Below, in pieces: positions 15,906 to 36,353 of a DNA stretch of 64,000 nucleotides; position 1 is the first letter of the stretch, and every line of letters starts with the position of its first letter. The stretch comes from Pseudomonadota bacterium. Its GTDB lineage: Bacteria > Myxococcota > JACRCW01 > JAFGSX01. The notes under the pieces are model-generated. The model was not told the origin of the DNA and ran no database searches. It worked only from the letters and a program-made list of their open reading frames with translations. Location of the stretch: the NCBI GenBank assembly GCA_043821645.1, contig JBDRCO010000003.1, forward strand, positions 96,001 through 160,000, read 5' to 3'. A program made the translations under genes and the position numbers.

Positions 15906-17921
15906 TCAGCCGCCGTTGTCCTCGCCCACGGACTTCATGTAGATCTCCTTGACCAGCTTGGGATCCACAAAGGGGTTGCGGCTGTTGGTGCCGGACCAGT
16001 TGGCAAAGCCCGCAGGCCGCCACAAGAAGTCCGGGTTCTCGCTCATCCAGCCGCCGTTGACGGCCTTGCCGTTCTGGTCGTGCTCCACCCAGTACTCGTA
16101 GGTCTTGGGGTAGTTCGACTCGCCGAAGAAGACATCCATGGTGTACTTGGTGATCTCGCCGTCGCCAGCCGGGCCGTTGTGACCGCCCTCGGTGGGCCGT
16201 GCCGCACCCTCGAGCTTGACGCCGTCCTTGAGGTCGGCCTTCCAGAAGTTGTAGTTCCACACGTGCTCGCCGGAGTCGCGGTCCATGGCGGCGGGCTTCT
16301 TGTCCTCGCCCAGCCACTTGATCATGGTGTCGTGGAACGCCATGGGGCTGATGTCCTTGGGATCCTCGTGGGTCAGCGAGGCGATGTCCGCGGCCTTGAC
16401 CGTGCGGGTGGTGCCACCGGGGATCTGGATCTCGAGGTCCTTGTCGACCTTGTTCAGGGTCAGGGTGTCGCCGGACCGCTTCATGTTCGCGGTGTTGTAG
16501 TCGAGGTTCGTGGTGATGGTGCCGCGCAGCGTCTCGCCGCTCTTGAGGCGGATGGTGTCGGCTTCCTTGTCGTAACGATTGCCCTCGAAGTCCGTGCCCT
16601 GGGCCTGGCTGTTCGCCAGCACCGTGAGCAAGCCGCGGATGTCCTGCTTGGTGAAGGTCACGCCGTCGATGGTGACGTCCTTCTGGGGATCCTTGAACAG
16701 GATGCCGGCCAGGGCGACCTTGTCGCAGCTGCCCCACCAGCCCACGCTCATGGTGTTGTCGACCTTGCCGTCGCCGCCGCTGTGCGTGTAGTACACCTGC
16801 GCCGCCTCGGCGTCGGTCAGCTTGGTGCCGTCGGGCTTCGAGAACTCGTACTTCTCGATCTTGCCGTCGGCGCCGCGCACGTCCTTGCGGCTCAGGTCCA
16901 CGACCTTGTCACCGTCCTTGAGCTTGGGCTTGAGTGCGTCGCGGCTGTAGACGGGCGCGAAGTTGCCCCGGGCATCCAGGAAGTCAACCTTGACGCCCTC
17001 GCTGATCTTGCCGTCGCCGTCAAAGTCCACGCCCGTGGTCTTCTCGGCGTTGTTCTCGCTGATGGTGGAGTTGGGGATGAACTCACCCTTGCTGGCGCGG
17101 TCACCGATGAGCCAGTTCAGGGCCGGCTTGCGCTCGAACTCCAGCGCCTTGGCTCTGTCGTCCATGCCGCGGGCGCGCAGCAGGCCGTCGAGCTTGTCCA
17201 GGGGGCCGCTCTTGGCCCACAGGTTGGAGGCCGGGCTGCCCGGCTGATCCATGTCGCCCGAACCGGCCATGGGCCAGTAGGTGGTGGTCCACACCTGGTG
17301 GTCGGCTTCCATGACGCGGCGGTCAAACTTGGTGGGGTCCGTGCCCCTGGCGGCTTCCTTGAGGTCGGAGATGGTGTCCTTGTCGGTGTCGACCTTGTCG
17401 TAGCCCTTGGCCGCGCTGTTCTGACCCGCCTTGAGCAGGTCGTCGGTGGCCTTGTCGAGCTCCTTGGGATCCAGGTTGGGCTGGGCTGCGGCCAGGCCCT
17501 TCATTTTGCCCGCGTACTCGGAGAACAGGGCAAAGGCTTGCGACGGATTCGCGTCGAGCTCGGACTTGCGGCTTTGGTATTCCGCGGTGAAGGCGTCGCC
17601 TGCCTTGTGAAAGTCGGTCAGGCTGTTGACACCGGTCGAGGCCGGGCCCGGAGTCACCGGATCCGGGGTTGGCGGCGCGGTCGGGGTCGTCGGCGCCGGG
17701 TCGTCGAGCTTGATCTTGAGGAACTTGGCCAGCTTCTGCTTGGCGTCGGGGTCAAACTTGTCGGCATGCTGCTCGAGGATCTGCTTGAGTTCGTTCTTTT
17801 CGGCCTTGGTGACGCCGAACCAGTCCTTGGCCTTGTTGATGAGCTTGTCGACTTCGCCCTTGTCGATCTTGTTGTCGGCGAGGATGGCGGTCTGCAACTT
17901 GCGAATTCCGCTGACGGTCAT
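15906..17921 (-). CDS. Transglutaminase-elicitor (GP42-like) family protein with N-terminal helical/Ca-binding modules
   Basis: GGAGGAGG RBS; WTTTYWP, WWGSC, LFKDP, FTKQDIRGLL, HVWNY, YEYWVE, GGW..NPDFLWRP, RNPFVD; no signal peptide. Confidence 0.65.
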   Translation of the reverse strand: MTVSGIRKLQTAILADNKIDKGEVDKLINKAKDWFGVTKAEKNELKQILEQHADKFDPDAKQKLAKFLKIKLDDPAPTTPTAPPTPDPVTPGPASTGVNSLTDFHKAGDAFTAEYQSRKSELDANPSQAFALFSEYAGKMKGLAAAQPNLDPKELDKATDDLLKAGQNSAAKGYDKVDTDKDTISDLKEAARGTDPTKFDRRVMEADHQVWTTTYWPMAGSGDMDQPGSPASNLWAKSGPLDKLDGLLRARGMDDRAKALEFERKPALNWLIGDRASKGEFIPNSTISENNAEKTTGVDFDGDGKISEGVKVDFLDARGNFAPVYSRDALKPKLKDGDKVVDLSRKDVRGADGKIEKYEFSKPDGTKLTDAEAAQVYYTHSGGDGKVDNTMSVGWWGSCDKVALAGILFKDPQKDVTIDGVTFTKQDIRGLLTVLANSQAQGTDFEGNRYDKEADTIRLKSGETLRGTITTNLDYNTANMKRSGDTLTLNKVDKDLEIQIPGGTTRTVKAADIASLTHEDPKDISPMAFHDTMIKWLGEDKKPAAMDRDSGEHVWNYNFWKADLKDGVKLEGAARPTEGGHNGPAGDGEITKYTMDVFFGESNYPKTYEYWVEHDQNGKAVNGGWMSENPDFLWRPAGFANWSGTNSRNPFVDPKLVKEIYMKSVGEDNGG

Positions 17922-18001
17922 CTTGAATCCTCCTCCGTCCGCAGGGACGGTCTTTGACTGGACCACGACCTGCTCACCCTGAGGGGAGCCGCCTGCCTCT
18001 C

Positions 18002-18027
18002 TTTATTATCATGGGTCGGAGTTTGGC
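18002..18027 (-). promoter_or_regulatory. Upstream motif, copy 1
   Basis: Minus strand GCCAAA CTCCGACCCATGATAATAAA; core 15/20 identical to 36325..36344. Confidence 0.4.
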
Positions 18028-18030
18028 GGA

Positions 18031-18969
18031 TCAGGGCAGCTGGGGTACCTGAATGACCTGATCACCTGGACTTACGCGGGTCTCTGTCCCTTCCTTGCTC
18101 TCGTCAGCGCCCCCGGCGGCGCTGTCCCCCGAAACCTGGCCCTGGGTCTCTGTCCCCTCTTGGCTCCTCTCGTTCTCTTTGTCCCCTTGAACGTGCCCCC
18201 CCTGAGATCCGGCCTCTGCGTCGCGTCCCGCGTCAGGCTCTGGGCGTGCGCTGTCCTGAGCCTGCAATCTCAGCAGGCCGGCCGGGGCAGGCAGGCGCTC
18301 GACATGCAGGCTGTCGACGCTATCCAGGTCGGCCAGCATCTTCTCGACCGCCCGTGAGAGCAGCTCGGACAGGGCGCGGGCCGCGAGGGAGAAGTTGCGA
18401 TCCGCGAGATGCTCACGCTCGTCGAAGGTCATGTTGTACAGGGCTTCTCCCGTCGAGAAGCGGGTGAGCTGCAGGGACAGGGAGAGGTGGGCAAACCAGA
18501 TTTCTCCGGAGTCATACACCTCGATGGCGTGCAGGTTACCGGACAGGTTGAAGTCGGGGCGGCGCTCCCCCAGCTCGCGGGTGACGCCTTCAAAGCGCCT
18601 GCTCTCCTTGAGGGACTGGGCGATGAAGTCGCTGATCATGCGCTTGGGCTTGGCCACCCAGACGTGGTGGTCGTCATAGCGCAGTTCGTAAGGGTTGCGC
18701 CGGACAGCGATCTGGAACTTCTCGTACACCGCATCGGAGTGCAGGGTGCGAACCCTCACCAACCCTCGCAGCGGTCGCTGACCGTAATCCAGGGCTGTCT
18801 TGCCGTGCAGCACGAAGTAGCTTTGCTCCTGCTCGACGCGGCCGAAGCAGGTGGCGCCGGCGAGGGCCAGGGTCAGCCCAGTGAGGCCAATGGCGCACAG
18901 CCCCCGCAGCCACAGGCCGCGTGCCGGACGACGGAGGGAAGGGGACCAGGCCTGGACGCTCCTGTTCAT
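18031..18969 (-). CDS. ABC transport auxiliary lipoprotein (PqiC-like)
   Basis: Hydrophobic leader ending at Cys; HHVWVAKP, LSGNLHAIE; follows the MCE gene. Confidence 0.75.
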   Translation of the reverse strand: MNRSVQAWSPSLRRPARGLWLRGLCAIGLTGLTLALAGATCFGRVEQEQSYFVLHGKTALDYGQRPLRGLVRVRTLHSDAVYEKFQIAVRRNPYELRYDDHHVWVAKPKRMISDFIAQSLKESRRFEGVTRELGERRPDFNLSGNLHAIEVYDSGEIWFAHLSLSLQLTRFSTGEALYNMTFDEREHLADRNFSLAARALSELLSRAVEKMLADLDSVDSLHVERLPAPAGLLRLQAQDSARPEPDAGRDAEAGSQGGHVQGDKENERSQEGTETQGQVSGDSAAGGADESKEGTETRVSPGDQVIQVPQLP

Positions 18970-18982
18970 GGTCTGCTCCTGG

Positions 18983-20008
18983 TCACTCGGTACCGCGGAT
19001 CAAGGTCGACGGATCCTGGGCGATGATGCGGCTGAATTCACGGATGTCCTCGGTGGCGTCCTGCAGGTTGCTCAGGCTTTGCACGAAGTCCTCGCGTCCG
19101 GCGCGAACCGCCACATCGACGTTCTCGATGAGGGCGGTCATGTACTGCAGCGAGGCCAGCAAGTCCGCGATGGCTTTGCCAAGCTCGGCATTGGACAATC
19201 GCTGGTCCAGCTTTGCCACGGCCTCGCGGGTGGTGACCACTACGCGTGCCACCTCGGCCTCGTCGATCCGTGACAGCGGGCGCCGCACTTCTTGCAGAGT
19301 TCTCTCGGCTTCCTTGAGGGCGGCGATGGCTTCTGTGCGCACCTGCACCAGCGAACGCTCGGCCTCGGCGGCCACCAGGGTGACCTGGGCGCTTGCACGC
19401 CCGACTTCCTCGAGGGTCCTGTTGAAGGTCTCCTTGTTCTGGACGATGAAGCCGTCGGCGTCGCTGGCCAGCTGGGTGGCGCTGTCGACCAGCTTCTCGA
19501 CGCGCATGCGATTCTCGGCCCGGGTCCACAGCGCCAGCTCGTTGGCCACCATCTCGATCTTGAGTGCGATCTGCTCGGCCTGGCCTGTGAGCCGATGCAC
19601 CAGTGATGGCCCGACCTCGATGCGGGTGCCGGGCTCCATGACGCCGCTGGTGGGATCACCCGGGATCAGGTTGATGGACTTGAGGCCGGTGATGCCGCCC
19701 ATGTCGAGCACAGCCTGTGTTCCAATGTAGAGGGGTGTGCCAGGCACCAGGGCCAGGGTCACCTCGATGGCCATGGGGTCGTCGCTGGCGATGCCCATCT
19801 CGCGCACGTTGCCCACGCGCAGGCCGCGGTAGGTGACGGGTGCGCTGACCTCGAGGCCTGACACGCTCTCGGTGAAGCGCGTGCTGTAGACGTCGCGGTG
19901 CTCCCAGATCTTGAGGCCCGCCAGCACCAGCCCCAGCCCCACGAACAGCACGCTGCCCGTGATGACGAAGGCGCCCAGCCGCACCTTCTGTGCTCTCGAC
20001 AGCTTCAC
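18983..20008 (-). CDS. MCE/MlaD family protein with helical extension
   Basis: TM anchor, FTESVSGLEVSAPVTYRGLRVGNV, GITGLKSINL, end DPSTLIRG. Confidence 0.9.
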   Translation of the reverse strand: MKLSRAQKVRLGAFVITGSVLFVGLGLVLAGLKIWEHRDVYSTRFTESVSGLEVSAPVTYRGLRVGNVREMGIASDDPMAIEVTLALVPGTPLYIGTQAVLDMGGITGLKSINLIPGDPTSGVMEPGTRIEVGPSLVHRLTGQAEQIALKIEMVANELALWTRAENRMRVEKLVDSATQLASDADGFIVQNKETFNRTLEEVGRASAQVTLVAAEAERSLVQVRTEAIAALKEAERTLQEVRRPLSRIDEAEVARVVVTTREAVAKLDQRLSNAELGKAIADLLASLQYMTALIENVDVAVRAGREDFVQSLSNLQDATEDIREFSRIIAQDPSTLIRGTE

Positions 20009-20802
20009 GGCGTGCCCCCCTCGTGCAACGTGGCCAGCAGCGACGCCGGGCGTGCGGTGGCGGCGCTGGGACTGCGATCAAAAAAGGCCCGGACCTCGGG
20101 GTGGTCGTGCCGGCGCACGTCGCCGAGGGCGCCGCTCACCAGCACCTGGCCACCTGACAGCATGGTGGCGTGGTCGGCGATGGCTACGATGCTGGGCAAT
20201 TCGTGGGTCACGATGACAACGGCCATGTCGAAGCGGTCGCGCAGGCTCAGGATGAGGTCGTCGAGCTGGGCCGCGGTCACCGGGTCGAGGCCGGCACTGG
20301 GCTCGTCACAGAACAGCACCAGCGGATCCAGGGCCATCGCGCGGGCCAGGGCCGCGCGTTTCTTCATGCCGCCGGACAGGCTGGGCGGAGTGAGTCTGGC
20401 CGCGTGGCTGAGGCCCACCAGGCTCAGCTTCATCATCACCATCTCGTCGACGACACGGCGGGGCAGGGTGGGTGCGAACTCGAGGATGGGCAAGGCCACG
20501 TTCTCGTGAATGGTCAGGGCGTTGAGCAGGGCGCCGCCCTGAAACAGCATGCCCACCCGCGACAGCACCCGGGTCCACTCGGCTTCTTCAGCCTGCACGC
20601 GGTCGACCCCGAGGAGCCGAACCGACCCCTGGGTGGGTTCGAGCAGGCCGATGATGTGCTTGAGCAGCGTGCTCTTGCCGCAGCCGGAGCCGCCGAGGAT
20701 GGCGTGGATCTGGCGTGGTGCGACGCGCAGGTTCACGCCGCGCAGCACGTCAACGTCGACGTAGCGCGCCCACAGACCCTCGACCTCGACCACGTACTGC
20801 AC
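20005..20802 (-). CDS. MlaF/Mkl-like ABC ATPase
   Basis: GGSGCGKS, LFQGGAL, LSGGMKKRAALARA, DEPSAGLDP, VTHE. Confidence 0.92.
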   Translation of the reverse strand: MQYVVEVEGLWARYVDVDVLRGVNLRVAPRQIHAILGGSGCGKSTLLKHIIGLLEPTQGSVRLLGVDRVQAEEAEWTRVLSRVGMLFQGGALLNALTIHENVALPILEFAPTLPRRVVDEMVMMKLSLVGLSHAARLTPPSLSGGMKKRAALARAMALDPLVLFCDEPSAGLDPVTAAQLDDLILSLRDRFDMAVVIVTHELPSIVAIADHATMLSGGQVLVSGALGDVRRHDHPEVRAFFDRSPSAATARPASLLATLHEGGTP

Positions 20803-20816
20803 GGCTCTGGCTCCCC

Positions 20817-21878
20817 CTAGAAGCTGAAGTAGAAGGTCAAGCTGGCCACCGCGTCGGCCACGATGACGGCAAAGATGCTGGCCACCACGCTGAGGGTGGC
20901 ACTGCGGCCCACGGCGTCGGCGCCACCGCGGGTGCGCAGGCCAACCACCGCGCCAATGGTGACGATGAGCTGGGCAAACACCACGGCCTTGAACAGTCCG
21001 ACCAGCAGATCCTTGAGCTGAAGCGAGCCCAGCAGACGTTCGACAAAGGCCTCGGGACCCACCCCCAGGTAGATGATGGCGACGAGAAAGCCACCCAGGA
21101 TGCCCAGCAGGTCAGCGAGCACTGTGAGCAGGGGTTGGGTGATGGTGATGGCGATGAACTTGGGCAGCACCAGAAAGCGCACCGGGTTGAGGCCCATGGT
21201 GCGCAGGGCGTCGATCTCCTCGGACACCACCATGGTGCCAAGCTCCGCTGCGACCGCGGAGCCGGAGCGCCCCGCCACCACGATGGCGGTGATGAGCGGG
21301 CCTAGCTCGCGGGTGAGCGAGACACCGATGAGGTCCGCGACAAAGATGTTGGCCCCGAACTGTCTGAGCTGGGCCGCACTCTGCAGGGCGATGGTGCCGC
21401 CGATGAGAAAGGCGATGAGCCCGACCACGCCCAGCGCCTGCGAGCCCATGGCCGCCATCTCGAAGTTCACGATGGGCCAGCGGATCTCTCGTGGGCGCAG
21501 GATCCCGCGCACGCCGTACCAGGCCAGGTCCGCGCACAGCAACAGGTACTCGAGCAGGGCCTCGCGAAGCTCCGCCGCACGCTCGCCCACGCTCTCGACC
21601 AGGCCCGCGACCCGCGGCCGCTCGGGCGCTTCGCGCACGAAGGGCATGAGGTCGAGCATGCGCGCCACGTCCGGGCTGGCGTTGCGCAGGTGCAGCGACC
21701 GGCCTTCGTGATCCGCGCGCCGTCTGAGCTGTGCGATCCAGGCCGCGCCCGCGCTGTCGATCTCGGTGACCTGTTGCAGGTCCAGCTCGACCGGTCCCGT
21801 TCCCGACCACGTGGCCTCGAGCGCAGCCGACACCGGCGCGATCTGATCCCTGGTGAGCTGTGCGCTGTTCACCTGCAT
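20817..21878 (-). CDS. MlaE family permease with N-terminal STAS domain
   Basis: LDLQQVTEIDSAG; RELGPLITAIVVAGRSGS, EEIDALRTMG, GGADAVGRSAT; TGATG overlap with upstream gene. Confidence 0.9.
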   Translation of the reverse strand: MQVNSAQLTRDQIAPVSAALEATWSGTGPVELDLQQVTEIDSAGAAWIAQLRRRADHEGRSLHLRNASPDVARMLDLMPFVREAPERPRVAGLVESVGERAAELREALLEYLLLCADLAWYGVRGILRPREIRWPIVNFEMAAMGSQALGVVGLIAFLIGGTIALQSAAQLRQFGANIFVADLIGVSLTRELGPLITAIVVAGRSGSAVAAELGTMVVSEEIDALRTMGLNPVRFLVLPKFIAITITQPLLTVLADLLGILGGFLVAIIYLGVGPEAFVERLLGSLQLKDLLVGLFKAVVFAQLIVTIGAVVGLRTRGGADAVGRSATLSVVASIFAVIVADAVASLTFYFSF

Positions 21879-23500: not shown

Positions 23501-23647
23501 GGCCGGCCATGATAGGAGGCAAGGCGCAGGTCGTCCACCCCGGCGACGACAGGTCGGAACCATCCAGTACGGACGTGAGCATTGAACCCTGGCCCCTGCT
23601 CGCTATCCTGAGAACCATCCCCGTCTCGCCACCTGGCAGATCTCGGG

Positions 23648-26017: not shown

Positions 26018-26042
26018 GCCACGTCACGACCCCAGCCCCGCA

Positions 26043-26654: not shown

Positions 26655-26848
26655 GGTGTCCTCGTCGGGGTGTCGGTCACATATAGTGTTTGGCCCGCGG
26701 CACGCTTTGTGTTTCAAGCCCCAAGTCTGCAATGCGACGAGGTCATCGATGGGCAGGTGAGCACAGTGGTCGCCGCTGCCAGGCCGTTGCCTGGGACCTT
26801 CGCCTGCGTGGAACGACAGGGGTACCGAGGGCCGGGGGCGTGGGGTGA

Positions 26849-28168
26849 TCAGGCTTCGGGCCTGGTGACCCGGCCCAGGAACAGCACGGTGCCGGTGGCC
26901 AGGTCGCGGATGGCGTAGATGAAGGGCCGATCGCAGGTGATGTAGGGCCCGCTCGGCATGCCGCTGCCCTCCATCACCACTGCGGTGGCGGCGGCGGCCT
27001 CGGTGCCCTTCTCGTTGACCGAGATGAAGGCCTTGTGCAGCACGTTGCCGATGAACAGCTCGCGGCTGCCGTCCATGCCCGAGAAATCAGCGGTGCCGGA
27101 CACGAAGGCGTCGTGCATGCCAAGCCCCTGCAGCACATCGCGCAGCGTGATGCTGGGCGTGCCAAAGGTCCAGCGCGGCAGGCTCAGGATCACCTCGCCG
27201 TCACTCATGCTGTCGACGATGCTCTGCAGGCTCTCGGCGGTCAGTGCGTCCTCGAAGGTGCTGAACTGTCCCGCGGCAGGCAGCAGGATCAGCATGGCCA
27301 GCTCGCCACCGTCATAGGGCAGCTCGACCGCTTGCAGGTCGGCCGTGTCGAGGTGCTTGAAGGAGGTGGTCTGGTGCATCATCTGCACCGGCACGCTGGA
27401 ACCATCGAGTGCGGAAAAGGTTGCCTGGCTGGTGGACTCCTCGGCAAAGACCTCGGCCCAGGCGGCGTTGAAGTAGATGGCGTTGGTCAGCACCAGCCGG
27501 GTCAGGCTGTCCAGGGCTCCTGCCGGGATCAGGTCCTGGATGCGCTGCTCGGTCTGCTCCTCGACCCAGCCGTTGATGGTCTGGCGCGCAACCTCGGTCT
27601 GGGTCGCAAAGTCCAGCAGGCGCAGGCCCGCGCCGTAGTTGATGGCCAGGGTGTCGAGGAAGGGTGCCAGAAAACCGTAGCCATCCTGTCCCCAGATCGC
27701 GTTGACCACATGCAGCCGGAAGCCCTCTCCGTCCTGGCCGGCGGCGCCCTGGCCGCGGCTGTTGAGCTCGAGGTCCAGGTGATTGAACACCGGATGCAAC
27801 CTGTCCTGGGCCAGCACGTAATCCATGGCATCCGCCATCTCGGTCGCGGTGTTGCCCAGGGCACCGGCATCCGTCATGGCCAGGGCGATCGAGATGCTGT
27901 AGGGCGAGAAGAACACGTTGTCGACGGTGCCCGCGCGCAGCGCCTGGTACATGTCGATCCCGAACTGCGTGTTGCCACGGACCTGCGCCGTGACGTCGCT
28001 GGCCTCAACCGCAGGGCTCAAGTTTCGTTCCTTGTCCGAACGCACCAGGGTGCCAGGACCGTCGTCATTCTGGGGCGTCGGCTCGATCGGCGTGCAGGCC
28101 CACAGGCCCAAGCCGAGCAGGGCCAGCGAGGTGGTGATGAGCGTCTTTGCGGTGCGCAGGGTTCGCAT
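26849..28168 (-). CDS. Serpin family lipoprotein
   Basis: Lipobox LWAC; NVFFSPYSI, INGWVEEQT, LVLTNAIYF, hinge EKGTEAAAAT, DRPFIYAIRD..LFLGRV. Confidence 0.93.
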   Translation of the reverse strand: MRTLRTAKTLITTSLALLGLGLWACTPIEPTPQNDDGPGTLVRSDKERNLSPAVEASDVTAQVRGNTQFGIDMYQALRAGTVDNVFFSPYSISIALAMTDAGALGNTATEMADAMDYVLAQDRLHPVFNHLDLELNSRGQGAAGQDGEGFRLHVVNAIWGQDGYGFLAPFLDTLAINYGAGLRLLDFATQTEVARQTINGWVEEQTEQRIQDLIPAGALDSLTRLVLTNAIYFNAAWAEVFAEESTSQATFSALDGSSVPVQMMHQTTSFKHLDTADLQAVELPYDGGELAMLILLPAAGQFSTFEDALTAESLQSIVDSMSDGEVILSLPRWTFGTPSITLRDVLQGLGMHDAFVSGTADFSGMDGSRELFIGNVLHKAFISVNEKGTEAAAATAVVMEGSGMPSGPYITCDRPFIYAIRDLATGTVLFLGRVTRPEA

Positions 28169-28259
28169 GTCAAACCTCCGAAAAGGTGGGGTGGTGCGTG
28201 TTCTGGCCCTCGCACACGCATAGCCTGGGCCAACCCTGCGCTCTAGATAACGTTACTGA

Positions 28260-28272
28260 AATCAAATGGTTG
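28260..28272. promoter_or_regulatory. IHF consensus site upstream of serpin
   Basis: AATCAA-ATGG-TTG matches WATCAA-N4-TTR inside an AT-rich patch. Confidence 0.4.
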
Positions 28273-28388
28273 TGAAAATGTCAGGCGTGGATGGTCGGCC
28301 CGAGCGCGTCAGAATTTTGAGGAGTTCGCGGTTTCTCTCGGCTGGACCGCAGCGCGCTGGTGGCAGGGTGAAGGGGCGCCGCGGCGGC

Positions 28389-28862
28389 TCAGGGTGTCTT
28401 GACCAGGGCGCGGAGCATCGCGGCCAGCTCCCTGTCCTCGAGCGCGGCCTGCTGTAGCTTCTCGCGACCACGCGACTGTTGATTGGCGGCGCGAAAGCAC
28501 TCCCAGGCGTTGCTGTAGGCGATCTCGCGGCAGGCGCGCAGGCTGGCGGCATGAGGGACGTCCGCGGGCACGCGCAGCGCCACCGCAGCCTTGAGATAGC
28601 TCTCGGCGGCCTCGGCGTGGTTGTCCGCCTGCACCAGCTCCGAGGCTCGCTCGAAACGCTGCTCGGCGTCGTGATATCCCTCGGGCACGGGGTCCCGTCC
28701 GGCCACACCGGGAAGGGCCTGCAGGATGGGAAAGCGGGAACCGACCTGCTGCTGGGTTTCGGACATGGTCACTCTCCTCGTGTCGCGGGCGTCGTCGCGG
28801 TTCTGCGAGCACGCGATGCTGCCCACCAGGCACAGCACGGCAGCCTCGAGACGGCGGGACAT
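28389..28862 (-). CDS. Small helical lipoprotein, candidate immunity protein
   Basis: GAGGTG RBS, lipobox SIAC, TPR-like helices, two extra Cys; starts about 20 nt after the metallopeptidase stop. Confidence 0.65.
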   Translation of the reverse strand: MSRRLEAAVLCLVGSIACSQNRDDARDTRRVTMSETQQQVGSRFPILQALPGVAGRDPVPEGYHDAEQRFERASELVQADNHAEAAESYLKAAVALRVPADVPHAASLRACREIAYSNAWECFRAANQQSRGREKLQQAALEDRELAAMLRALVKTP

Positions 28863-28881
28863 CACAGCGCCACCTCGGGGC

Positions 28882-30636
28882 TCAGTTCACGTGCTTGTTC
28901 TTCTCGAAGTACTCGAACAGCTTGGGTGAGTTGGCCTTCATCCACTGCGGATCGGTGCGGTACAGCGAGTACGCCTCGGCGTAGAACTCCTGGGCGCCCT
29001 CCTTGGCCGCGTAGTCCGTGAAGGGCAAGATCTTGTTGTCCTTGACGTACTTGGAAAAGCTCTGGAGCCGTGCGCTGGTGTCGCCGGGGCCACTGGCCGT
29101 CGTCTCCACGGCCCGGGCCGTGGCCATGGTCCGGGCCAGGTCCGCGCGGGTGTCCTGGGCAGCGGCCATGTCCTTGGCCGCGCGCGCGGTGGGGTCGCTG
29201 TCCGGGAGCTTGGCCAGGGCCGCGTCACGGTTCTTGATCGCGGTCGCCAGGGCGGTCTTGGCGGTCTTGACCTGGCTGTCGGTCTTGGCATCGGACAGAG
29301 CCTGGGTCTTCTTGTCCACGTCCTGGATGGCGCCATTGACCTTGAGGGCAGGCCGCTGCAGGGAGACCCCGCTGGTCTGCGCGTAGTACGTGTCGGCGGC
29401 GCTCTTGTAGTCGCCCAGGGTGTGCTTGTTGTAGGCCTCGGTGGCGACGTTGCGCGTGTTCATCGCGCTGTTCAACTTCTCGGCCTCGACGGCGTGGCCA
29501 GCCTCGTGCACCAGGGTCTGCACCGAGGGTGGCAGGCGGCTACCGGCGGCACCACTGCCGACGAAGCTGTTCGCATCGCCCTTGAATGTGTCATCGCCGA
29601 CGCGGATGCTCTTTTTGTAGCTGGCCGGCGGACCGACGTCGACATCCGCCTTGAACTCGGCCACGCGGGAACCACCCAGGGATGTGTGGCGCTCGAGCAC
29701 GATGCCCTTGAGGGCGTCGCGCTCGGCGCCCGAGGTCAGGCTGAACGCCGCATGGGCCTTGTTCAGCTCGTCCAGGGCAAAGGCCTTGGGCGTACTCGAG
29801 ACGGTGACGCCGAAGTCCTTCTGCAGTGCTTTCTTGGCCTCGTCGACGGTCTTGAAGGTCGAGGTCGCGGGGATCTCTGCCGTGCCTGGGCCGTGCAGGG
29901 TGACCGTCGCCTTGCCCGCCTTGCTGATCTCGGCGCTGATGGCGTTCTTGGTGCCGTTGAGGTCGACGATGCGGTCCTGGTGCCCGCCCTTCTCAGCATT
30001 GACCGAGTGCAACAGCGCGTGCTTGGCGTCGGCAGCCTCGGCGCTCTTGGGGTCCTTGAAGGGGGGCTTGAACTCGACGCCACCCGGGTATTCGGCGGCG
30101 AGAGCCTTGTCCAGGCGGGTGTGGGTCGCGGCGAGCTTGTCGGCCTTGCGCTCGGCGGCACTCAGCGGCGTGTTGAGCTTGCCACCGTTCATCACCGTGC
30201 CGTCGTACTTGTACTTGGTGCCCAGGTCGGCCTTGTCGCCGCCGTACTTGTAACCGAGGGTCTCGGAGCGTGCACCAGGCCGGGCCAGCTGCGCGGGGCG
30301 GGGCAGGGTCGAGGCGCCCAGCATGGCCCTGGACACCTCGGCGTTCAGGGCCTGGTCGACCTGGACCGCCTTCTTTTTCTTCTTCTTCGAGGTCTTGCCC
30401 ACACTCGCGTTCTCGATGTGGGTCAGCTTGCCGCCATCCTGGGGTCGGGCCGTCGTGTGAAACCGGTCCGCGGAGCCCGTGCTCTTGAGACCTGCATGCT
30501 CCTCGGTGGAGGCAGGAGCCTTCGCGGTCTCCGGGGTCGAGGAGGCCTGGGTGGTCGACGGCGCTGTCTGGGTGGCGGGCGAGGGCGCGACGGTCGGTGC
30601 TGGCCCGGGCTGGGCCGGGGTTCGGATCGTGCTCAT
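28882..30636 (-). CDS. Zinc metallopeptidase, anthrax-lethal-factor-like C-terminus
   Basis: LVHEAGHAV then FTDYAA..QEFYAEAYSLY..PKLFEYF; no signal peptide; P/T/S-rich leader. Confidence 0.72.
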   Translation of the reverse strand: MSTIRTPAQPGPAPTVAPSPATQTAPSTTQASSTPETAKAPASTEEHAGLKSTGSADRFHTTARPQDGGKLTHIENASVGKTSKKKKKKAVQVDQALNAEVSRAMLGASTLPRPAQLARPGARSETLGYKYGGDKADLGTKYKYDGTVMNGGKLNTPLSAAERKADKLAATHTRLDKALAAEYPGGVEFKPPFKDPKSAEAADAKHALLHSVNAEKGGHQDRIVDLNGTKNAISAEISKAGKATVTLHGPGTAEIPATSTFKTVDEAKKALQKDFGVTVSSTPKAFALDELNKAHAAFSLTSGAERDALKGIVLERHTSLGGSRVAEFKADVDVGPPASYKKSIRVGDDTFKGDANSFVGSGAAGSRLPPSVQTLVHEAGHAVEAEKLNSAMNTRNVATEAYNKHTLGDYKSAADTYYAQTSGVSLQRPALKVNGAIQDVDKKTQALSDAKTDSQVKTAKTALATAIKNRDAALAKLPDSDPTARAAKDMAAAQDTRADLARTMATARAVETTASGPGDTSARLQSFSKYVKDNKILPFTDYAAKEGAQEFYAEAYSLYRTDPQWMKANSPKLFEYFEKNKHVN

Positions 30637-30665
30637 GGTGGGGCTCCCCCTGAAATGGAGGTCCC

Positions 30666-30694
30666 ACTGTGAACCCGGGAGCCGGGCAGGTCAA
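30666..30694 (-). promoter_or_regulatory. Sigma70-like promoter for the metallopeptidase
   Basis: TTGACC-N17-CACAGT. Confidence 0.35.
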
Positions 30695-30713
30695 CCGCCC
30701 GGCGCGCGAAGGC

Positions 30714-32399
<1,686 letters not shown>

Positions 32400-32490
32400 G
32401 ATTGCAGACTCCTCGGCGTCTCTCGCGCCGGGCGCATGATCCGATGAAGCGGATGGGGCGTAAAGCGTCGGCGTGACGCGGATCGTCAGG

Positions 32491-34041
32491 TCAGTCCAGG
32501 ATCTCGCGCGCCTTGACCGCGCTGTTCATGGGCTCCTGGCCAGGCTCCCAGGGCATGGACGCCAGGGCGCGGGCACGCGAGGTGGGCTCGTTGCCGATGT
32601 CATTGGGAACCGCGTCGATGCTCTTCTTGAGCGCGCGGTAGTCGGGGTCGTTGCGGCGACTGCGATCGGACAGCCGGGTCTCGATCTCGTCCATGAGCGA
32701 GCTGTCGCGCATGAACAGGCCGTAGGCGCTGACCTCGCGGCCCATGGCGTGCTGGATGATGCTCACCGAGTCGTTGCACACGCCGGTGACGCCGTAGCCC
32801 GACATCTTCATGCCCTGGGCGCGTGCGCTGTCGTTGATGAGGTCGCCCATGAGCCCGGCCAGGTTGACCGCGCGCAGGGCCTCGTCACCCGAGAACTGGT
32901 CGACGACCTTGCCGCCCAGCCAGTCCGGGGTCTGGTTGAGGCCATCGGGGAAGAAGCCGGTGTCGGGCACGCCCTGGTACCACTTCATGTCAGCGTCGAT
33001 ACCGGGGCCCTGGGTGGTGGGCCCGGACTTGATCGAGATCAGCAGGTCCGAGTGCAGGGCGGGCAGCACGGCCTCGTTGCCCTGGGCGTCCTTGACACCG
33101 GTGCGCATCATGACCCCGGCGGGTACGTCGTGCAGTGCGCCGTCGGGCGTTCGCGTCATCAGGCTGGCAAAGTTGGCCGCGCGGTGCTTGATGGCGACGT
33201 TCACCTCGTGGCCATCGTCCTTGAGCGCCTTGAGAAAGGTGTCCAGGCGCGTGAACTCGCCGCCCTTGTAGGCGACGCTGAAGCGCTCGCCCGCGGGCAG
33301 GTTGGCGTTGTCGGCGAGGCGGTTGAAGACCTCGGCCAGCACCACGCGCTGCTTGGCCTGGTCGTCGGGCAGGTCGCTGATGAGCCCGCCCTGGTACAGC
33401 CCTGGCGCCAGCTCCTTCATGCCGGGGTCGCCGCGGGTATAGGCCACGCTGTCGAGCTTGGCCCAGTCGAAGCTCTGGGGGAGCAGGTGCTTGGGGGCAT
33501 CGGGCTGGGCGCCGCCGCTGGCGCTGCGGGCGCGGGCCGAGGCCTGCATGGCGTCGAAGCCGTCGGCCATCTGCTGCGTCGTCACCTGCAGCATGTTGGC
33601 CAGCTTTTGTGGATCCGCCAGGGCCGCCTGCACCATGGCCGGCGGGAACTGTATGCCGGTCTCGCGCTGCAGCTGATCGATGATCTGCTGCACGGCCTGC
33701 TGGCTGCCGGGCTGGCTGGCCACGGCCGTGAGCACGTGGTTCAGGTCCACCGCCTCGGGATAGCGACCGGGCACCAGACCGAACAGGTCCTGGGGCCTGG
33801 GCGCGTCGAAGGTGCGGGCCGCCAGGTGACTGAGCGCGTTGGAGACGCCGGTGCCGTCGCCGAGGGCGCCGGTGACGTCGGGCACCACGCCGTTGGTGGT
33901 GGCTGCGTCCAGGCCTCCCGGTGGCGTCGTGGAGTTGTTGTCGACCGGAGCGTTGACGTTGGTCGTGGTCACCGGCGTGTTCGTCGTGGTGCTGTCGACG
34001 ACAGGGCGGCGAACATTGCTGCGGTTGTCGATGGCGGTCAT
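32491..34041 (-). CDS. Hypothetical protein, Thr/Asn-rich leader, [11 protein letters not shown] motif
   Basis: AGGAG RBS; strong coding codon bias; 28 nt after upstream stop; no signal peptide. Confidence 0.75.
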
Positions 34042-34069
34042 GCAGGCTCCTGTGTTCGAAAAAAAAGCG

Positions 34070-36283
34070 TCAATCCGGCCGACGCGTGTGACTGCTGGGG
34101 TCCAGCATGTGATCGGTGACCGTGCTGGGGTGCGCGGGCGCGCCGTTTTCCTGCACGCCGTACTCGCGGCCATAGTACTTGACCCGCACGCTGGCCACGG
34201 TCTCGTCCATGCCCGCCATGCGGCTCAGGGCGAGGACCTCGGGAAGGTTCTCGTAGTCGTACTTCTGCAGCATGGTGTTGAGCTTGCCCACCCACTGGCC
34301 CTGTTCCGAACTCTCGCCGAGCGAGCGCATGTTGTCGCTGAACCTGCCGGCGTCACCCACCGCCTCGGCATAGCCCCAGCTATCGCCCCACCTGATATCG
34401 ACGCCCGCGTCCTGCGCGGCGCGGTAGAACTCGCGGATTGCGGTGTCCTGCTTCTTCGTGTCCTCCGGGTCGTTGCCAGGAGTCTGCTTGAGCTGCTGGT
34501 ACTCGCGCGCTGCCTGCATCGCAGCCGGAACGTTGACGAGCTCGGTGATGCGGGACAGTTCGGGCTTGACCGTGGCCGTGGCGGCAGCGTGGGCCCGCAG
34601 GAGCTTGGTCTCGGCCTCGGGTCCGTGGGTGGCATCCAGGATGTTGTGCATGCCTTGCTGGCTGTACACGACGTCGTAGCTGCGCTCGGTGTTGTCCTTC
34701 GCTGAGAACAGCACGCGACCCTCGAACTCGGGTGCATCCGACAGGTCGACCCCGAACTCGCGGGCGAAGTTCTTGTAGTGTGCCATCTCCTTCTGAAAGG
34801 TGGCGGTGTCGTCCATGTTGTTGCGGACGTTGAGGTAAGGAGTCTCCTTGATGTTGCCCTGGGGGTCCTTCTCCATCAGGTAGGCCGCGTCCCAGTTGGT
34901 CTGTTGCGAACCCGTGATGATGTTGCTGCCGTGCCGATCAAAGTCGGATCGTCGGAGCCAGGCCTCATGCCCGTCGGGCGTGCGCACGTGCAGCTCGCCG
35001 TTGGTGGCGGTCAGGCGCTTGAGGAGCAGCTTCTTGTCGAAGAACTCGATCTTGGCCATCATGGCCGTCGACGAGGTCTCGCCCGTGGCGGTGATGCGCT
35101 GCACTCCGGACTGCTCGGGGTGCTGGCTTGCACGCTCCAGGGCCTTGTCATTGAGCAGGATGCCCTTGTCGTAGTTGGCCGCGGCGTTGGGGTTCTTGGT
35201 GTCGTACACCGACACCGCGATCTGCCTGTCGTTCTCGTAGGTCCCGCTGCTGACCGTGGCACTGATCTTCAGCTTGTTGACCAGGTCGGCGACCTTGTCT
35301 GCGGCCAATCCCCCCACGTGGTCTCCGAGCTTCTGATTTCGCAGCGAGGGAACCTTGGCGAACAGCTCGTCCTCGACGGGTCCATCGCCGACCTGCAGGC
35401 CAACGCTGGCTTGCAGGGAGGCCGAGCGAGATTTCCCGTCGAGCTCGGTGAGGGTGCTGGCATAGAAACCGTTGTCCAGGGCCTCGCCCTTGAGTTCGTA
35501 CATCTTCTCTGTCCCGCTCGACACGCTCGCCGAGACGCTGGCAGCCAGACCCACCGGTCCGGCGAGGGGCGTCAGCGAACTCGAACTGGCGCCTACCGAT
35601 GCGCTGGCCGTGCCGCGGCCCGTGACCTTCCAGCTCGAGCCCGGCTCCATGGCAAAGGCCGCGTCCGACTTGAGTGGAAGATCCACCGAGTAGTCCTTGA
35701 AGACCTGCTTGACTACGTCCTTGGTGCCGCTGGTCAGCTTGCGCTTGTCCTCGGCGGTCACCGTGTAGGGCTGGGTGGTCTCGTAGACCAGGTAGCCGTC
35801 GGCGGCGAAGCCCGCGCTGGCGGGAAGCCCGGGGAGACCCCTTGCGACATGGGACCCTGCGTGGACAGCCACCTGAGTCTTGAGCCACACCACGTCCTTG
35901 CCGGTCTCGGCCTGGATGCGCTCGGCGGTCTGCTTTTGCAGCGCGGTCTGATGTTCCGGATTGATGATGTCCTCGGACAGCTTGATGCCGACGGGACCAA
36001 CGCTAGCGCCGACGCTGTGTTCCTTGCGGATCTCGTCCAGGGTCATGACCTTGACCTTGTCGACGGCCTTGTCAAAGGTCCGGCGCACCACACCCGGACG
36101 CTCTGTCCTGTCCACGCCATCGCTGTGCGTCCCCTCGGTCACCGCACTGGTCGCGGTCACGGTGGAGGTGCTCGCGGCTTCTCCCGTACCGGCCGTGTTG
36201 GTGGTTCCGCCTGACGTGGTGGTCGTCGCGGGGTCGCTGGAGTTCGTGCGTGTGGTCGGCGTGCGGGTGTTGATGCCGGTCAT
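34070..36283 (-). CDS. Large hypothetical protein, Thr/Ser-rich leader
   Basis: AAGGAG RBS; 737 aa; no signal peptide or TM helix. Confidence 0.75.
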   Translation of the reverse strand: MTGINTRTPTTRTNSSDPATTTTSGGTTNTAGTGEAASTSTVTATSAVTEGTHSDGVDRTERPGVVRRTFDKAVDKVKVMTLDEIRKEHSVGASVGPVGIKLSEDIINPEHQTALQKQTAERIQAETGKDVVWLKTQVAVHAGSHVARGLPGLPASAGFAADGYLVYETTQPYTVTAEDKRKLTSGTKDVVKQVFKDYSVDLPLKSDAAFAMEPGSSWKVTGRGTASASVGASSSSLTPLAGPVGLAASVSASVSSGTEKMYELKGEALDNGFYASTLTELDGKSRSASLQASVGLQVGDGPVEDELFAKVPSLRNQKLGDHVGGLAADKVADLVNKLKISATVSSGTYENDRQIAVSVYDTKNPNAAANYDKGILLNDKALERASQHPEQSGVQRITATGETSSTAMMAKIEFFDKKLLLKRLTATNGELHVRTPDGHEAWLRRSDFDRHGSNIITGSQQTNWDAAYLMEKDPQGNIKETPYLNVRNNMDDTATFQKEMAHYKNFAREFGVDLSDAPEFEGRVLFSAKDNTERSYDVVYSQQGMHNILDATHGPEAETKLLRAHAAATATVKPELSRITELVNVPAAMQAAREYQQLKQTPGNDPEDTKKQDTAIREFYRAAQDAGVDIRWGDSWGYAEAVGDAGRFSDNMRSLGESSEQGQWVGKLNTMLQKYDYENLPEVLALSRMAGMDETVASVRVKYYGREYGVQENGAPAHPSTVTDHMLDPSSHTRRPD

Positions 36284-36324
36284 GGTCACTCCTTGACGGA
36301 CAGGGGGACGAGCCTCTCAGCCTG

Positions 36325-36353
36325 TTCACTATCAATGGCCGGAGGATTTTGGC
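36325..36353 (-). promoter_or_regulatory. Upstream motif, copy 2
   Basis: Minus strand GCCAAA ATC CTCCGGCCATTGATAGTGAA. Confidence 0.4.

What the first reader, a model, noticed from the sequence alone, without database searches (positions are those of the whole stretch)
15906..36353. Set of large signal-peptide-less proteins with effector-like N-termini: candidate undescribed secreted effector repertoire
Seen: four genes (starts 17921, 30636, 34041, 36283) begin MTVSGI, MSTI, MTAI, MTGI. Three continue into 50-80 aa of S/T/P/N-rich low-complexity sequence ending near a short Asp/Phe motif (SADRF, ARTFD, RRTFD); the fourth has a helical module then a P/T linker. None has a Sec, Tat or lipoprotein signal or a TM helix, yet two carry domains normally extracellular (TGase-elicitor, LF-like peptidase). 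Known: type III/flagellar substrates have disordered S/T-rich N-termini. Inference: substrates of a one-step secretion system used in predation or conflict. No secretion machinery is visible in this window.
Basis: partly seen in the sequence, partly recalled or inferred. Interest (0 to 1): 0.75.

Follow-up and report, generated by a model that had tools for sequence, protein, structure and literature searches.

The report
Signal-less lytic effectors sharing a leader
An uncultured myxobacterium-like genome encodes about forty cell-wall-degrading and toxin-like proteins that lack ordinary export signals but share an unusual N-terminal start, probably marking them as cargo of a poorly understood secretion machine used to lyse other bacteria.

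Summary
The four genes are real. Their ATG starts each have a Shine-Dalgarno-like site, and none has a Sec, Tat, lipoprotein or membrane segment. Three carry 74-95 aa T/S/P-rich leaders. The fourth carries a roughly 70-aa helical N-module. The 'Asp/Phe motif' is not conserved and is chance.

The window shows only part of a genome-wide class of about 40 signal-less proteins. They start M-[T/S/P]-x(0-2)-[I/V]-[R/N/polar].
- Cargo domains include peptidoglycan-binding domains with M23, VanY, YkuD, CHAP or C39-like hydrolases, LysM, phospholipase D, transglutaminase-like domains and a zincin.
- Gene C folds as an NlpC/P60-like Cys hydrolase. Gene D has a porin-like beta-sheet fold.
- Unrelated families keep the short start while the rest of the leader drifts.
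- Leader-type starts are enriched for PG-binding/LysM cargo: 8/39 against 0/40 controls.
- Gene B and a downstream lipoprotein form a conserved effector-immunity-like pair.

The genome has an injectisome-related T3SS without a detectable needle, plus a flagellar cluster. I found no T6SS or eCIS sheath.

Best reading (about 0.5): these are exported antibacterial effectors whose N-terminus is a non-Sec signal, most plausibly for the myxobacterial T3SS-like gate, whose effectors are still unknown in the literature. Export itself is inferred and was not shown.

The parts
15906..17921 (-). Gene A, 671 aa: MTVSGIR start, ~70-aa helical N-module, P/T linker, transglutaminase-elicitor-like domain
   Evidence: Translation; PF16683 E 1.6e-14; 3tw5 E 8.4e-5; full-length paralogue at G000:C51:217868-219880
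17706..17921 (-). A's N-terminal helical module (residues 1-72), a repeated N-terminal domain
   Evidence: tblastn finds 6 further copies at the N-termini of other proteins of the genome, E 1e-18 to 2e-4; no Pfam hit
17929..17936 (-). SD-like GGAGGAGG upstream of A
28882..30636 (-). Gene B, 584 aa: MSTIRTP start, ~95-aa T/P/S/A-rich leader, HExxH zincin-like C-terminal domain
   Evidence: (ATLF below cut-off)
30352..30636 (-). B leader (residues 1-95)
   Evidence: Composition. Near homologues start MSTVRGPG, MSNVRLPG and MSKISGG, with non-alignable P/T-rich leaders
30644..30649 (-). SD-like GGGGAG upstream of B
28389..28865 (-). 158-aa lipoprotein gene 16 nt downstream of B; immunity-like partner
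   Evidence: N-terminal hydrophobic segment ending in Cys. A homologue (35% id over 150 aa, E 2e-22) overlaps the stop of the B homologue by 4 bp in metagenome locus L211
32491..34041 (-). Gene C, 516 aa: MTAIDNRSN start, ~80-aa T/N/P-rich leader, 436-aa conserved enzyme domain
   Evidence: The alignment has invariant Cys (GYGxTGVCNDS) and His. AF2 pLDDT 94.5. VIA Z 4.7-5.4 to NlpC/P60-papain-like hydrolases including the T6SS effector TseH
33802..34041 (-). C leader (residues 1-80)
   Evidence: Of 119 homologues, 106 keep a leader of >=40 aa (median 70). Ile lies at position 3-6 in 74/106, against 1.8% Ile in the rest of the leaders
34047..34051 (-). SD-like AGGAG upstream of C
34070..36283 (-). 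Gene D, 737 aa: MTGINTRTP start, 74-aa T-rich leader, 663-aa domain of an undescribed family
   Evidence: No Pfam in 37 of the 38 relatives scanned, out of 65. AF2 pLDDT 88.3, about 14 long strands plus a helical C-terminus. VIA top 50 are all membrane beta-barrels, Z 7.6-10.5
36062..36283 (-). D leader (residues 1-74)
   Evidence: Of 65 family representatives, 37 have an N-terminal extension of >=40 aa (median 83), and I/V/L lies at position 3-6 in 28/37
36289..36293 (-). SD-like AGGAG upstream of D

Best explanation
The four genes belong to a genome-wide repertoire of roughly 40 antibacterial, mostly cell-wall-directed effectors made without Sec/Tat signals.

Their extreme N-terminus, M-[T/S/P]-x(0-2)-[I/V]-[R/N/polar], has few acidic residues. 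It is followed by either a 40-100 aa T/S/P-rich disordered leader or a ~70-aa helical module. Together these act as a targeting region for a Sec-independent export route.

The most plausible route is the injectisome-related, apparently needle-less T3SS encoded on other contigs, the myxobacterial 'T3SS*' type. It would thread the unfolded proteins through the inner-membrane export gate. Delivery to prey would need a further step, such as a Tad/Kil-type pilus as proposed for Myxococcus.

Shown here:
- absence of classical signals;
- shared and conserved starts across unrelated families;
- lytic or toxin-type cargo;
- one conserved effector-lipoprotein pair;
- presence of T3SS genes.

Inferred: export, the identity of the machine, and action on prey.

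Sub-odds: exported by some non-Sec route, about 0.65. Exported specifically through a T3SS-type gate (non-flagellar or flagellar), about 0.4.
For: (1) Starts and missing signals.

(2) Conservation of the start in three unrelated families.
- C family: I/V/L at position 3-6 in 98/106, and no D/E in the first 12 residues in 86/106. The rest of the leader is not alignable.
- B family: MSTVRGPG, MSNVRLPG, MSKISGG, MSPPKIQG.
- D family: MPTIDRSP, MATRIDGQ, MSTIGATS, MGNTISG and similar.

(3) PG_binding_1 gives 33 hits in 15 ORFs.
- 13 have leader-type starts, 12 of them with an SD.
- None shows a hydrophobic signal after the SD-supported start.
- I/V at position 3-5 occurs in 11/13, against 29.9% at 1770 SD-supported starts (p=7e-5).
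- As a control, 5 of 13 M23 ORFs are flagged as signal/anchor-bearing by an automatic criterion, and 3 more by eye.

(4) Objective classifier: 39 leader-like genes out of 1770.
- 8 carry PG_binding_1 or LysM, against 0 of 40 random non-signal controls (p=0.0024).
- 16/39 have no Pfam hit, against 4/40 controls (p=0.0018).
- The class also picks up FlgD, a flagellar T3SS substrate, and a NolX/HrpF-family hit (PF05819, E 1.7e-8).

(5) Cargo domains: M23, VanY, YkuD_2, CHAP, C39_2, M74, PLDc_2 (twice), Transglut_core, TGase_elicitor.

(6) B's C-terminal domain also occurs behind eCIS_core/DUF4157 or PG_binding_1 N-termini in distant relatives. This is the domain-swapping logic of polymorphic toxins.

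(7) The B-lipoprotein pair is conserved.

(8) T3SS genes found:
- FliG-like, SctJ, FHA-SctD, EscN-type ATPase, YscO-like, FliK-like ruler, SctQ, FliO, SctR, SctS and SctT at C87:261582-277402;
- sctU on C134;
- sctV on C70.

(9) A conserved ~155-aa gene sits beside sctU and a TPR LcrH-like gene. It was found in 42/101 phylum genomes. It starts M-x-x-I-[K/R/N]-x-x-WPWP, i.e. the same kind of start inside the T3SS locus.

(10) No TssC and no phage-type sheath were found.

(11) Literature, passages read:
- T3SS signals are 5-100 aa, motif-less and S/T/P-rich (PMC8047123).
- T3SS* is required for prey lysis and its effectors are unknown (PMC10433427, PMC12075869, PMC12428579).
Against: - No secretion data of any kind.
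- No genomic linkage. C homologues lie 80 kb to >1 Mb from sctV where both are on one contig. No conserved chaperone or partner gene was found around 51 C loci.
- SctV is near-universal in the phylum (268/301), whereas C is in only 38/301. Co-occurrence therefore cannot discriminate.
- The motif is short and degenerate. Ile/Val near N-termini is generally elevated at real starts (I-motif 9.9%). For the composition-defined set the enrichment is modest: 6/26 Ile, p=0.039; 13/26 I/V, p=2.4e-4.
- The objective class includes clear cytoplasmic false positives: SSB, pirin, SHMT, SufBD, a cobalamin adenosyltransferase and a mis-started solute-binding protein.
- The T3SS cluster has no secretin, needle or translocon among the ORFs scanned. 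T3SS export alone would put peptidoglycan hydrolases in the producer's own periplasm.
- Most candidates lack an adjacent immunity-like gene.
- The genome is a 140-contig MAG with 3.95% estimated contamination.
Confidence: 0.5

Rival explanations
1. The proteins are exported effectors, but by a route other than the non-flagellar T3SS. Candidates are the flagellar T3SS on contig C86, a Tad/Kil-type or other type IV filament system acting alone, a holin/endolysin-like (type 10-like) release, vesicles, or programmed lysis.
For: - A complete-looking flagellar cluster exists with a second FlhA/FlhB/FliP set.
- The leader-like class includes FlgD.
- Signal-less PG hydrolases with PG_binding_1 are typical of phage endolysins (general knowledge).
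- There is no genomic linkage to the injectisome-type cluster.
Against: - The cargo is not only PG hydrolases. It includes PLD, a zincin, transglutaminase-like domains, a porin-like fold and LysM-annexin.
- The loci are scattered, and a start conserved across families is not expected for passive release.
- A T3SS-locus gene shares the start.
- Tad/T2SS-type systems normally take substrates that were first exported by Sec/Tat (general knowledge).
Confidence: 0.25
2. The proteins are not secreted. They are cytoplasmic, or released only by cell death. Their disordered N-termini are linkers or regulatory tails. The similar starts reflect codon and composition preferences at translation starts in a 67% GC genome (ACC, ATC, AAC and CGC codons).
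For: - Ile is generally raised near real starts: 6.4% at position 4, and the I-motif at 9.9% of 1770 starts.
- The motif is degenerate, and housekeeping proteins also match it (MglA-like GTPase, pirin, SSB).
- There is no direct export evidence.
Against: - PG_binding_1, LysM, VanY, M23, YkuD and CBM20 act on substrates outside the cytoplasm.
- 13 of 15 PG_binding_1 ORFs have this start and none has a signal, while M23 housekeeping enzymes of the same genome do have signals.
- Enrichment against non-signal controls is 8/39 vs 0/40.
- The start is held for 106 divergent C homologues while the leader sequence drifts.
- B has a conserved lipoprotein partner.
Confidence: 0.15
3. The gene starts are mis-called, and the real proteins begin upstream with ordinary Sec or lipoprotein signals.
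For: High-GC ORFs extend upstream of the ATGs: by 15 codons for A and 44 for C. One PG_binding_1 ORF (C3:16010-17203) has a hydrophobic stretch upstream that is reachable only from a TTG.
Against: - SD-like sites lie 5-8 nt before all four ATGs. They also lie before 12 of the 13 leader-type PG_binding_1 genes, and before seven further candidate genes checked.
- The upstream extensions encode no hydrophobic segment.
- Database homologues from independent gene calls start at the equivalent Met.
Confidence: 0.03

Closest known systems
N-terminal secretion signals of type III (injectisome and flagellar) substrates
   Same: - N-terminal, uncleaved, no hydrophobic core, S/T/P-rich and disordered, 5-100 aa, with no strict motif (PMC8047123, passage read).
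- An aliphatic residue lies at position 3-5 and acidic residues are few at the very start. This matches the empirical rules for Pseudomonas syringae effectors, which I recall and did not check in a paper.
- The producer genome has T3SS core genes.
   Different: - The start here is more stereotyped (M-T/S/P-x-I/V-R/N) and is kept across families.
- The leaders are long T/P-rich tracts.
- The cargo is antibacterial and peptidoglycan-directed, not eukaryote-directed.
- No dedicated class I chaperone genes were seen next to the genes.
- T3SS dependence is untested.
Myxococcus xanthus needle-less T3SS* acting with the Kil (Tad-like) system in prey lysis
   Same: - The gene content is of the same kind: SctD/J/Q/N/R/S/T/U/V with LcrH-like TPR genes, and no secretin, needle or translocon seen in the cluster scanned (PMC10433427 passage).
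- The predicted role of its unknown effectors, prey lysis with peptidoglycan degradation, fits the cargo found here.
   Different: - The literature names no effector or signal (PMC10433427, PMC12075869, PMC12428579; passages read).
- This genome belongs to a rare lineage of the phylum. Its family held one other genome and its class two further genomes among those sampled.
- It also has a flagellar cluster.
- Kil genes were not searched here.
T6SS peptidoglycan-hydrolase effectors with periplasmic immunity proteins (Tae/Tse type; TseH of Vibrio cholerae)
   Same: - Signal-less PG hydrolases.
- C's model aligns to TseH (6v98) with Z 5.2, rmsd 4.9 A, 130 residues.
- B has a conserved downstream lipoprotein, like an immunity gene.
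   Different: - No TssC or sheath was found in the genome.
- Most candidates have no adjacent immunity-like gene.
- Targeting is by an N-terminal leader, not by PAAR/VgrG/Hcp association.
Polymorphic toxins with exchangeable trafficking domains (eCIS_core/DUF4157 N-termini; XVIPCD C-termini of X-T4SS effectors)
   Same: - Distant relatives of B's C-terminal domain carry PF13699 or PG_binding_1 in place of the leader.
- An ESM-Atlas structural row links D's fold to XVIPCD-bearing proteins (TM 0.42/0.46, a lead only).
   Different: The trafficking part here is a short start plus a low-complexity leader or a small helical module. Neither matches any Pfam family.

Membership tests
Sec/lipoprotein signal peptide | Positively charged n-region followed by a hydrophobic h-region of 7-15 residues, with or without a lipobox Cys, within the first ~35 residues | tested here: not met
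   Max KD 10-window in the first 50 aa is 0.26-0.76 for A-D, against 2.09 and 2.61 for the serpin and lipoprotein in the same window. No SignalP run was possible.
Tat signal peptide | S/T-R-R-x-F-L-K motif followed by a hydrophobic h-region | tested here: not met
   Only C has an RR (RRPVV), and polar T/N/P-rich sequence follows it.
Type III secretion substrate | N-terminal disordered, S/T/P-biased region without a hydrophobic core | tested here: met
   Met for B, C and D: STPN 0.42-0.44 over 80 aa. A has the start but then a helical module.
Type III secretion substrate | Producer encodes a T3SS export apparatus | tested here: met
   Two sets of FlhA/SctV, FliP/SctR and FlhB/SctU. Injectisome-type cluster with YscD_cpl, T3SS_ATPase_C and YscO-like.
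Type III secretion substrate | Export depends on the T3SS ATPase and export gate | not testable with these tools
   Needs mutants and secretion assays.
Type III secretion substrate | Cognate chaperone or genomic linkage to the T3SS locus | tested here: inconclusive
   No conserved neighbour around 51 C loci. C and sctV are far apart. A T3SS-locus small gene shares the start type.
Transglutaminase elicitor (PF16683) - gene A | Match to the family profile above the gathering score | tested here: met
   53.9 bits vs 25, but only profile positions 116-177 of 361. 3tw5 E 8.4e-5. Catalytic residues were not examined.
Anthrax-LF-like zincin (PF07737, ATLF) - gene B | Profile match above the gathering score, plus HExxH with a downstream Glu ligand | tested here: inconclusive
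   16.5 bits vs 27.4. HEAGH is present. No PDB sequence match at E<=1.
NlpC/P60-papain-like cysteine hydrolases - gene C | Papain-like alpha+beta fold with a catalytic Cys-His pair | tested here: inconclusive
   VIA Z 4.7-5.4 to YiiX, TseH, Aichivirus 2A, 3kw0, DUF862 and PLAAT4, six of the top seven rows. This is under the Z 8 caution level. Foldseek found nothing at E<=0.001. Cys and His are invariant in 45 sequences. The geometry was not inspected.
Effector-immunity pair - gene B with the 28389-28865 lipoprotein | Conserved, tightly linked downstream gene for an exported small protein | tested here: met
   Conserved in the single related locus retrieved, 1 of 1: 35% id, E 2e-22, 4-bp overlap. 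Protection was not tested.
T6SS or eCIS cargo | Genome encodes a contractile sheath | tested here: not met
   No PF05943 and no PF04984 in a 94.7%-complete genome. The PF13699 search rang in no control genome and is uninformative.

The most novel reading that the evidence does not exclude
The M-[T/S/P]-x-[I/V]-[R/N] start plus its disordered leader (or the ~70-aa helical module) is the export signal of the needle-less myxobacterial T3SS*. The roughly 40 signal-less hydrolases, phospholipases, proteases and the porin-like protein found here would then be the so-far unidentified effectors that lyse prey. The same start on PG-binding proteins of a 9-Mb single-contig Myxococcaceae genome would make this testable in cultured myxobacteria.
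Probability: 0.3. Interest if true: 0.9.

Novelty: new variant of a known kind. Interest (0 to 1): 0.72.

Why it matters
Reviews and primary papers from 2023-2025 state that the effectors of the myxobacterial Kil/T3SS* predation machinery are unknown. I read passages of PMC10433427, PMC12075869 and PMC12428579.

A sequence feature that picks out a coherent set of signal-less cell-wall-degrading and membrane-directed proteins gives concrete candidates and a candidate signal to test. It would also give an antibacterial use of a T3SS-type gate with a recognisable leader.

It also flags two undescribed protein families as probable toxins: C, a ~430-aa Cys-His enzyme found in 38 of 301 sampled genomes of the phylum, and D, a ~660-aa porin-like fold.

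Tried and rejected
- Co-occurrence of family C with the SctV orthologue across 301 phylum genomes is uninformative, because SctV is in 268.
- Neighbourhood of C homologues. None of A, B, D or EttA lies within 1.5 kb in 29 loci. No partner is conserved across 51 loci with 5-kb flanks; the shared neighbours are a two-component system and others, in 34 loci or fewer, and look like plain synteny.
- The first word-based homologue search for D returned only itself, probably swamped by T-rich words. It was replaced by the exhaustive search without the leader.
- A crude enrichment test over all ATGs followed by low-complexity sequence was not significant (12/118 vs 6.1%, p=0.08). It was diluted by internal and off-frame segments.
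- Similarity of A's N-module to the N-termini of D-family proteins: phmmer found nothing better than E 0.05. Rejected.
- Foldseek against the PDB gave no hit at E<=0.001 for C or D.
- Downstream immunity-like genes: of 36 candidates checked, only B has a small lipoprotein gene downstream. Two others are followed by larger signal-bearing genes.
- The NolX-like gene's surroundings hold no T3SS genes.
- Earlier notes of this scan held nothing on this topic.
- The paper searches surfaced no description of such a leader in myxobacteria. Subscription journals are not covered, so this is not proof that none exists.
Full report
**Setting.** The window is G000:C3:96001-160000 of a 7.07-Mb, 140-contig, 67% GC genome, estimated 94.7% complete and 3.95% contaminated. 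Homologues of its genes come almost only from Myxococcota MAGs. Within the phylum it sits in a sparsely sampled lineage: its family held one other genome and its class two further genomes among those sampled.

**The observation.**
- All four ORFs exist on the minus strand with the stated starts.
- Each ATG is preceded at 5-8 nt by GGAG/AGGAG-type sequence.
- B, C and D have 42-44% S/T/P/N in their first 80 residues. A has 16% and instead a helical N-terminal module followed by a P/T linker.
- None has a hydrophobic segment comparable to the two signal-bearing genes in the same window.
- A carries a partial but significant TGase_elicitor match.
- B's LF-like match is below the Pfam cut-off, although an HEAGH motif is present.
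- The short Asp/Phe 'motif' is not conserved in homologues and is best read as chance.
- The genes are interspersed with housekeeping genes. Only D and C are adjacent.

**The starts are conserved across unrelated families.**
- Family C (145 database proteins at E<=0.001, 120 listed including the query, 119 analysed). 106 begin with Met and carry an extension of >=40 aa ahead of the conserved domain, median 70 aa. The extensions are A/P/T-rich and not alignable, yet 74/106 have Ile and 98/106 have I/V/L at position 3-6. Ile is 1.8% in the rest of the leaders. 98/106 have a small residue at position 2. 86/106 have no acidic residue in the first 12. Typical starts are MPIR and MTGRIRN.
- Family B (15 relatives). 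It shows MSTVRGPG, MSNVRLPG, MSKISGG and MSPPKIQG starts on P/T-rich leaders. More distant members carry the same C-terminal domain behind eCIS_core/DUF4157 or PG_binding_1.
- Family D (65 representatives). 37 have extensions of >=40 aa, median 83. I/V/L lies at position 3-6 in 28/37, for example MPTIDRSP, MATRIDGQ and MSTIGATS.
- Homologues are not independent samples. The contrast between a fixed start and a drifting leader still argues for selection on the first residues.

**The window shows a small part of a genome-wide class.**
- Composition-based scans and a rule-based classifier found many more such proteins.
- I took the first ATG with an SD in each coding ORF, giving 1770 genes. Of these, 792 had a hydrophobic N-terminal stretch, 939 were 'other' and 39 were 'leader-like'. 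Leader-like meant a small residue at position 2, I/V at 3-5, no D/E in residues 1-8, a polar-rich stretch 2-25 and no hydrophobic stretch.
- Pfam on all 39:
  - 8 have PG_binding_1 or LysM, combined with M23, VanY, YkuD_2, C39_2 or annexin repeats;
  - 2 are PLD-type;
  - 1 has a proprotein-convertase P-domain;
  - FlgD and a NolX/HrpF-family hit are in the class;
  - 16 have no family;
  - the clear cytoplasmic or mis-started false positives are SSB, pirin, SHMT, SufBD, a cobalamin adenosyltransferase and a solute-binding protein.
- Of 40 random 'other' genes, none had PG_binding_1 or LysM and 4 had no family. Fisher p=0.0024 and p=0.0018. The control was scanned at a stricter E-value, which works against the second contrast.

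**The converse test, starting from a domain.**
- PG_binding_1 hits 33 times in 15 ORFs.
- 13 of these ORFs have starts of this type: MTTVSNAT, MTVTATQR, MVTINSRV, MTSINRRD, MPIVTGHG and others. 12 have an SD.
- None shows a hydrophobic signal after the supported start. One has an upstream hydrophobic stretch reachable only from a TTG.
- I/V at position 3-5 occurs in 11/13, against 29.9% of real starts (p=7e-5). Two of the 13 are paralogues.
- Their catalytic parts are VanY/M15, M23, M74, YkuD, CHAP and C39-like.
- By contrast, 5 of 13 M23 ORFs in the genome are flagged as signal- or anchor-bearing by an automatic criterion, and 3 more by eye. Missing signals are therefore not a general artefact.
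- A 9-Mb single-contig genome of the large family f11 has only 6 PG_binding_1 hits. Two of its proteins start MVAIARSS... and MTSAIPPS... without a hydrophobic segment.

**A's helical module.** A's ~70-aa helical N-module recurs at the N-terminus of six other proteins, E 1e-18 to 2e-4. These include a full TGase paralogue and three ~700-aa proteins with a His/Cys signature. Most again start M-T/S/P-x-I-R/N. The strict pattern M[TSP]x(0-2)I[RN] occurs at 19 of 1770 supported starts, against 26 of 12714 internal Met. 13 of the 19 are effector-like.

**Cargo of the window genes.**
- C: a confident model (pLDDT 94.5) finds nothing with Foldseek. With the Foldseek-independent aligner, six of the top seven rows are NlpC/P60-papain-like hydrolases, at Z 4.7-5.4. 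They include the T6SS effector TseH. Cys and His are invariant in the family alignment. I read C as a probable Cys hydrolase, with membership inconclusive.
- D: the model (pLDDT 88.3) has about 14 long strands plus a helical C-terminal part. All 50 top rows are membrane beta-barrels at Z 7.6-10.5, with high rmsd. The family has no Pfam model. A pore-forming or membrane-inserting role is a guess. An Atlas row to XVIPCD-bearing proteins is only a lead.
- B: a zincin-like domain followed 16 nt downstream by a 158-aa lipoprotein gene. The one related locus retrieved keeps both genes with a 4-bp overlap, like an effector-immunity pair.

**Machinery.**
- The genome has two T3SS-type gates. One is in a flagellar cluster on C86, which has the same GC content as the genome.
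- The other is injectisome-related. It comprises FliG-like, SctJ, FHA-SctD (YscD_cpl), EscN-type ATPase, YscO-like, a FliK-like ruler, SctQ, FliO, SctR, SctS and SctT on C87, sctU on C134 and sctV on C70.
- I saw no secretin, needle or translocon gene among the ORFs scanned in these stretches. I did not search the whole genome for them.
- Next to sctU lie a 151-aa gene starting MTTIGTRTGWPFP and a TPR LcrH-like gene. The small gene was found in 42 of 101 sampled phylum genomes, often about 3.5 kb from sctV. It keeps M-x-x-I-[K/R/N]-x-x-WPWP.
- By position it recalls the secreted YscX with its TPR partner YscY. That arrangement is recalled, and it does not hit the YscX Pfam family.
- No TssC or phage-type sheath was found.
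- The SctV orthologue is in 268 of 301 sampled genomes. This tally includes the unpublished G195. It makes co-occurrence tests useless.

**Interpretation.**
- The simplest account is a repertoire of exported, largely cell-wall-directed antibacterial effectors whose N-terminus replaces a Sec signal.
- A T3SS-type gate is the most plausible exporter. The signal has T3SS character (PMC8047123, passage read). The class picks up a flagellar substrate and a NolX-family protein. A T3SS-locus gene shares the start. No contractile system was found.
- The M. xanthus literature places an effector-less, needle-less T3SS* at prey contact sites, where it is needed for lysis (PMC10433427, PMC12075869, PMC12428579; passages read).
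- Against this: export is untested, there is no genomic linkage or chaperone, the motif is degenerate, and a gate without outer-membrane parts would deliver hydrolases into the producer's periplasm unless it is coupled to another system.
- I put about 0.65 on non-Sec export and about 0.4 on a T3SS-type route.

Noticed in passing
G000:C86:~17000-55000 (outside the window): A complete-looking flagellar gene cluster (FlgB/C/D, rod/hook-type protein, FliM, FliP, FlhB, FlhA, FlhF/G-like) in a Myxococcota-like genome. Its GC content is the same as the rest of the genome (67.4% vs 67.2%).
   Followed up: partly
G000:C134:7371-8340 and loci L192-L210: A conserved ~155-aa gene with an M-x-x-I-[KRN]-x-x-WPWP start, followed by a TPR LcrH-like gene beside sctU/sctV. 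It was found in 42 of 101 sampled phylum genomes. By position it is analogous to YscX/YscY, but it has no Pfam hit.
   Followed up: partly
G000:C70:62073-64310: The SctV-type gene stands alone next to NADH-dehydrogenase genes here. Orthologues at >=59% identity are in 268 of 301 sampled genomes of the phylum, including genomes of only 1-2.5 Mb.
   Followed up: no
G000:C43:84883-88314: A signal-less 1143-aa protein with a leader-type start, a LysM domain and four annexin repeats. Another leader-type gene (MGVRKTGQTT...) follows 39 nt downstream.
   Followed up: no
G000:C42:51194-53248, C119:27311-29584, C112:3232-5391: Three ~700-aa paralogues behind A's helical N-module, with a conserved 'YSGH...G' / 'CRG' His-Cys signature suggestive of a clan-CD-like peptidase. 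They were not scanned against Pfam.
   Followed up: no
G000:C8:202-1530, C139:23934-24947, C101:95835-96785, C138:3924-5819: A paralogous leader-bearing group without a Pfam family, sharing an 'FH-x-G...S-x-GCQ' motif that resembles the L,D-transpeptidase (YkuD) active site. C138 combines it with five PG_binding_1 repeats.
   Followed up: no
G000:C48:15380-19408 and C70:81896-83476: Leader-type starts on a 1342-aa protein with a PPDK_N (ATP-grasp/PEP-utilising) domain and on a 526-aa LOG/SLOG (Lysine_decarbox) protein. These may be nucleotide-directed toxins, or they may be false positives.
   Followed up: no
window 26849-28168 (-): A serpin-family-looking gene with a clear signal/lipoprotein-type N-terminus lies between the effector-like genes. 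It was used only as a hydrophobicity control.
   Followed up: no
G000 whole genome vs G117: PG_binding_1 is strongly expanded in this genome: 33 hits in 15 ORFs, against 6 hits in 4 ORFs in a 9-Mb Myxococcaceae-type genome.
   Followed up: partly
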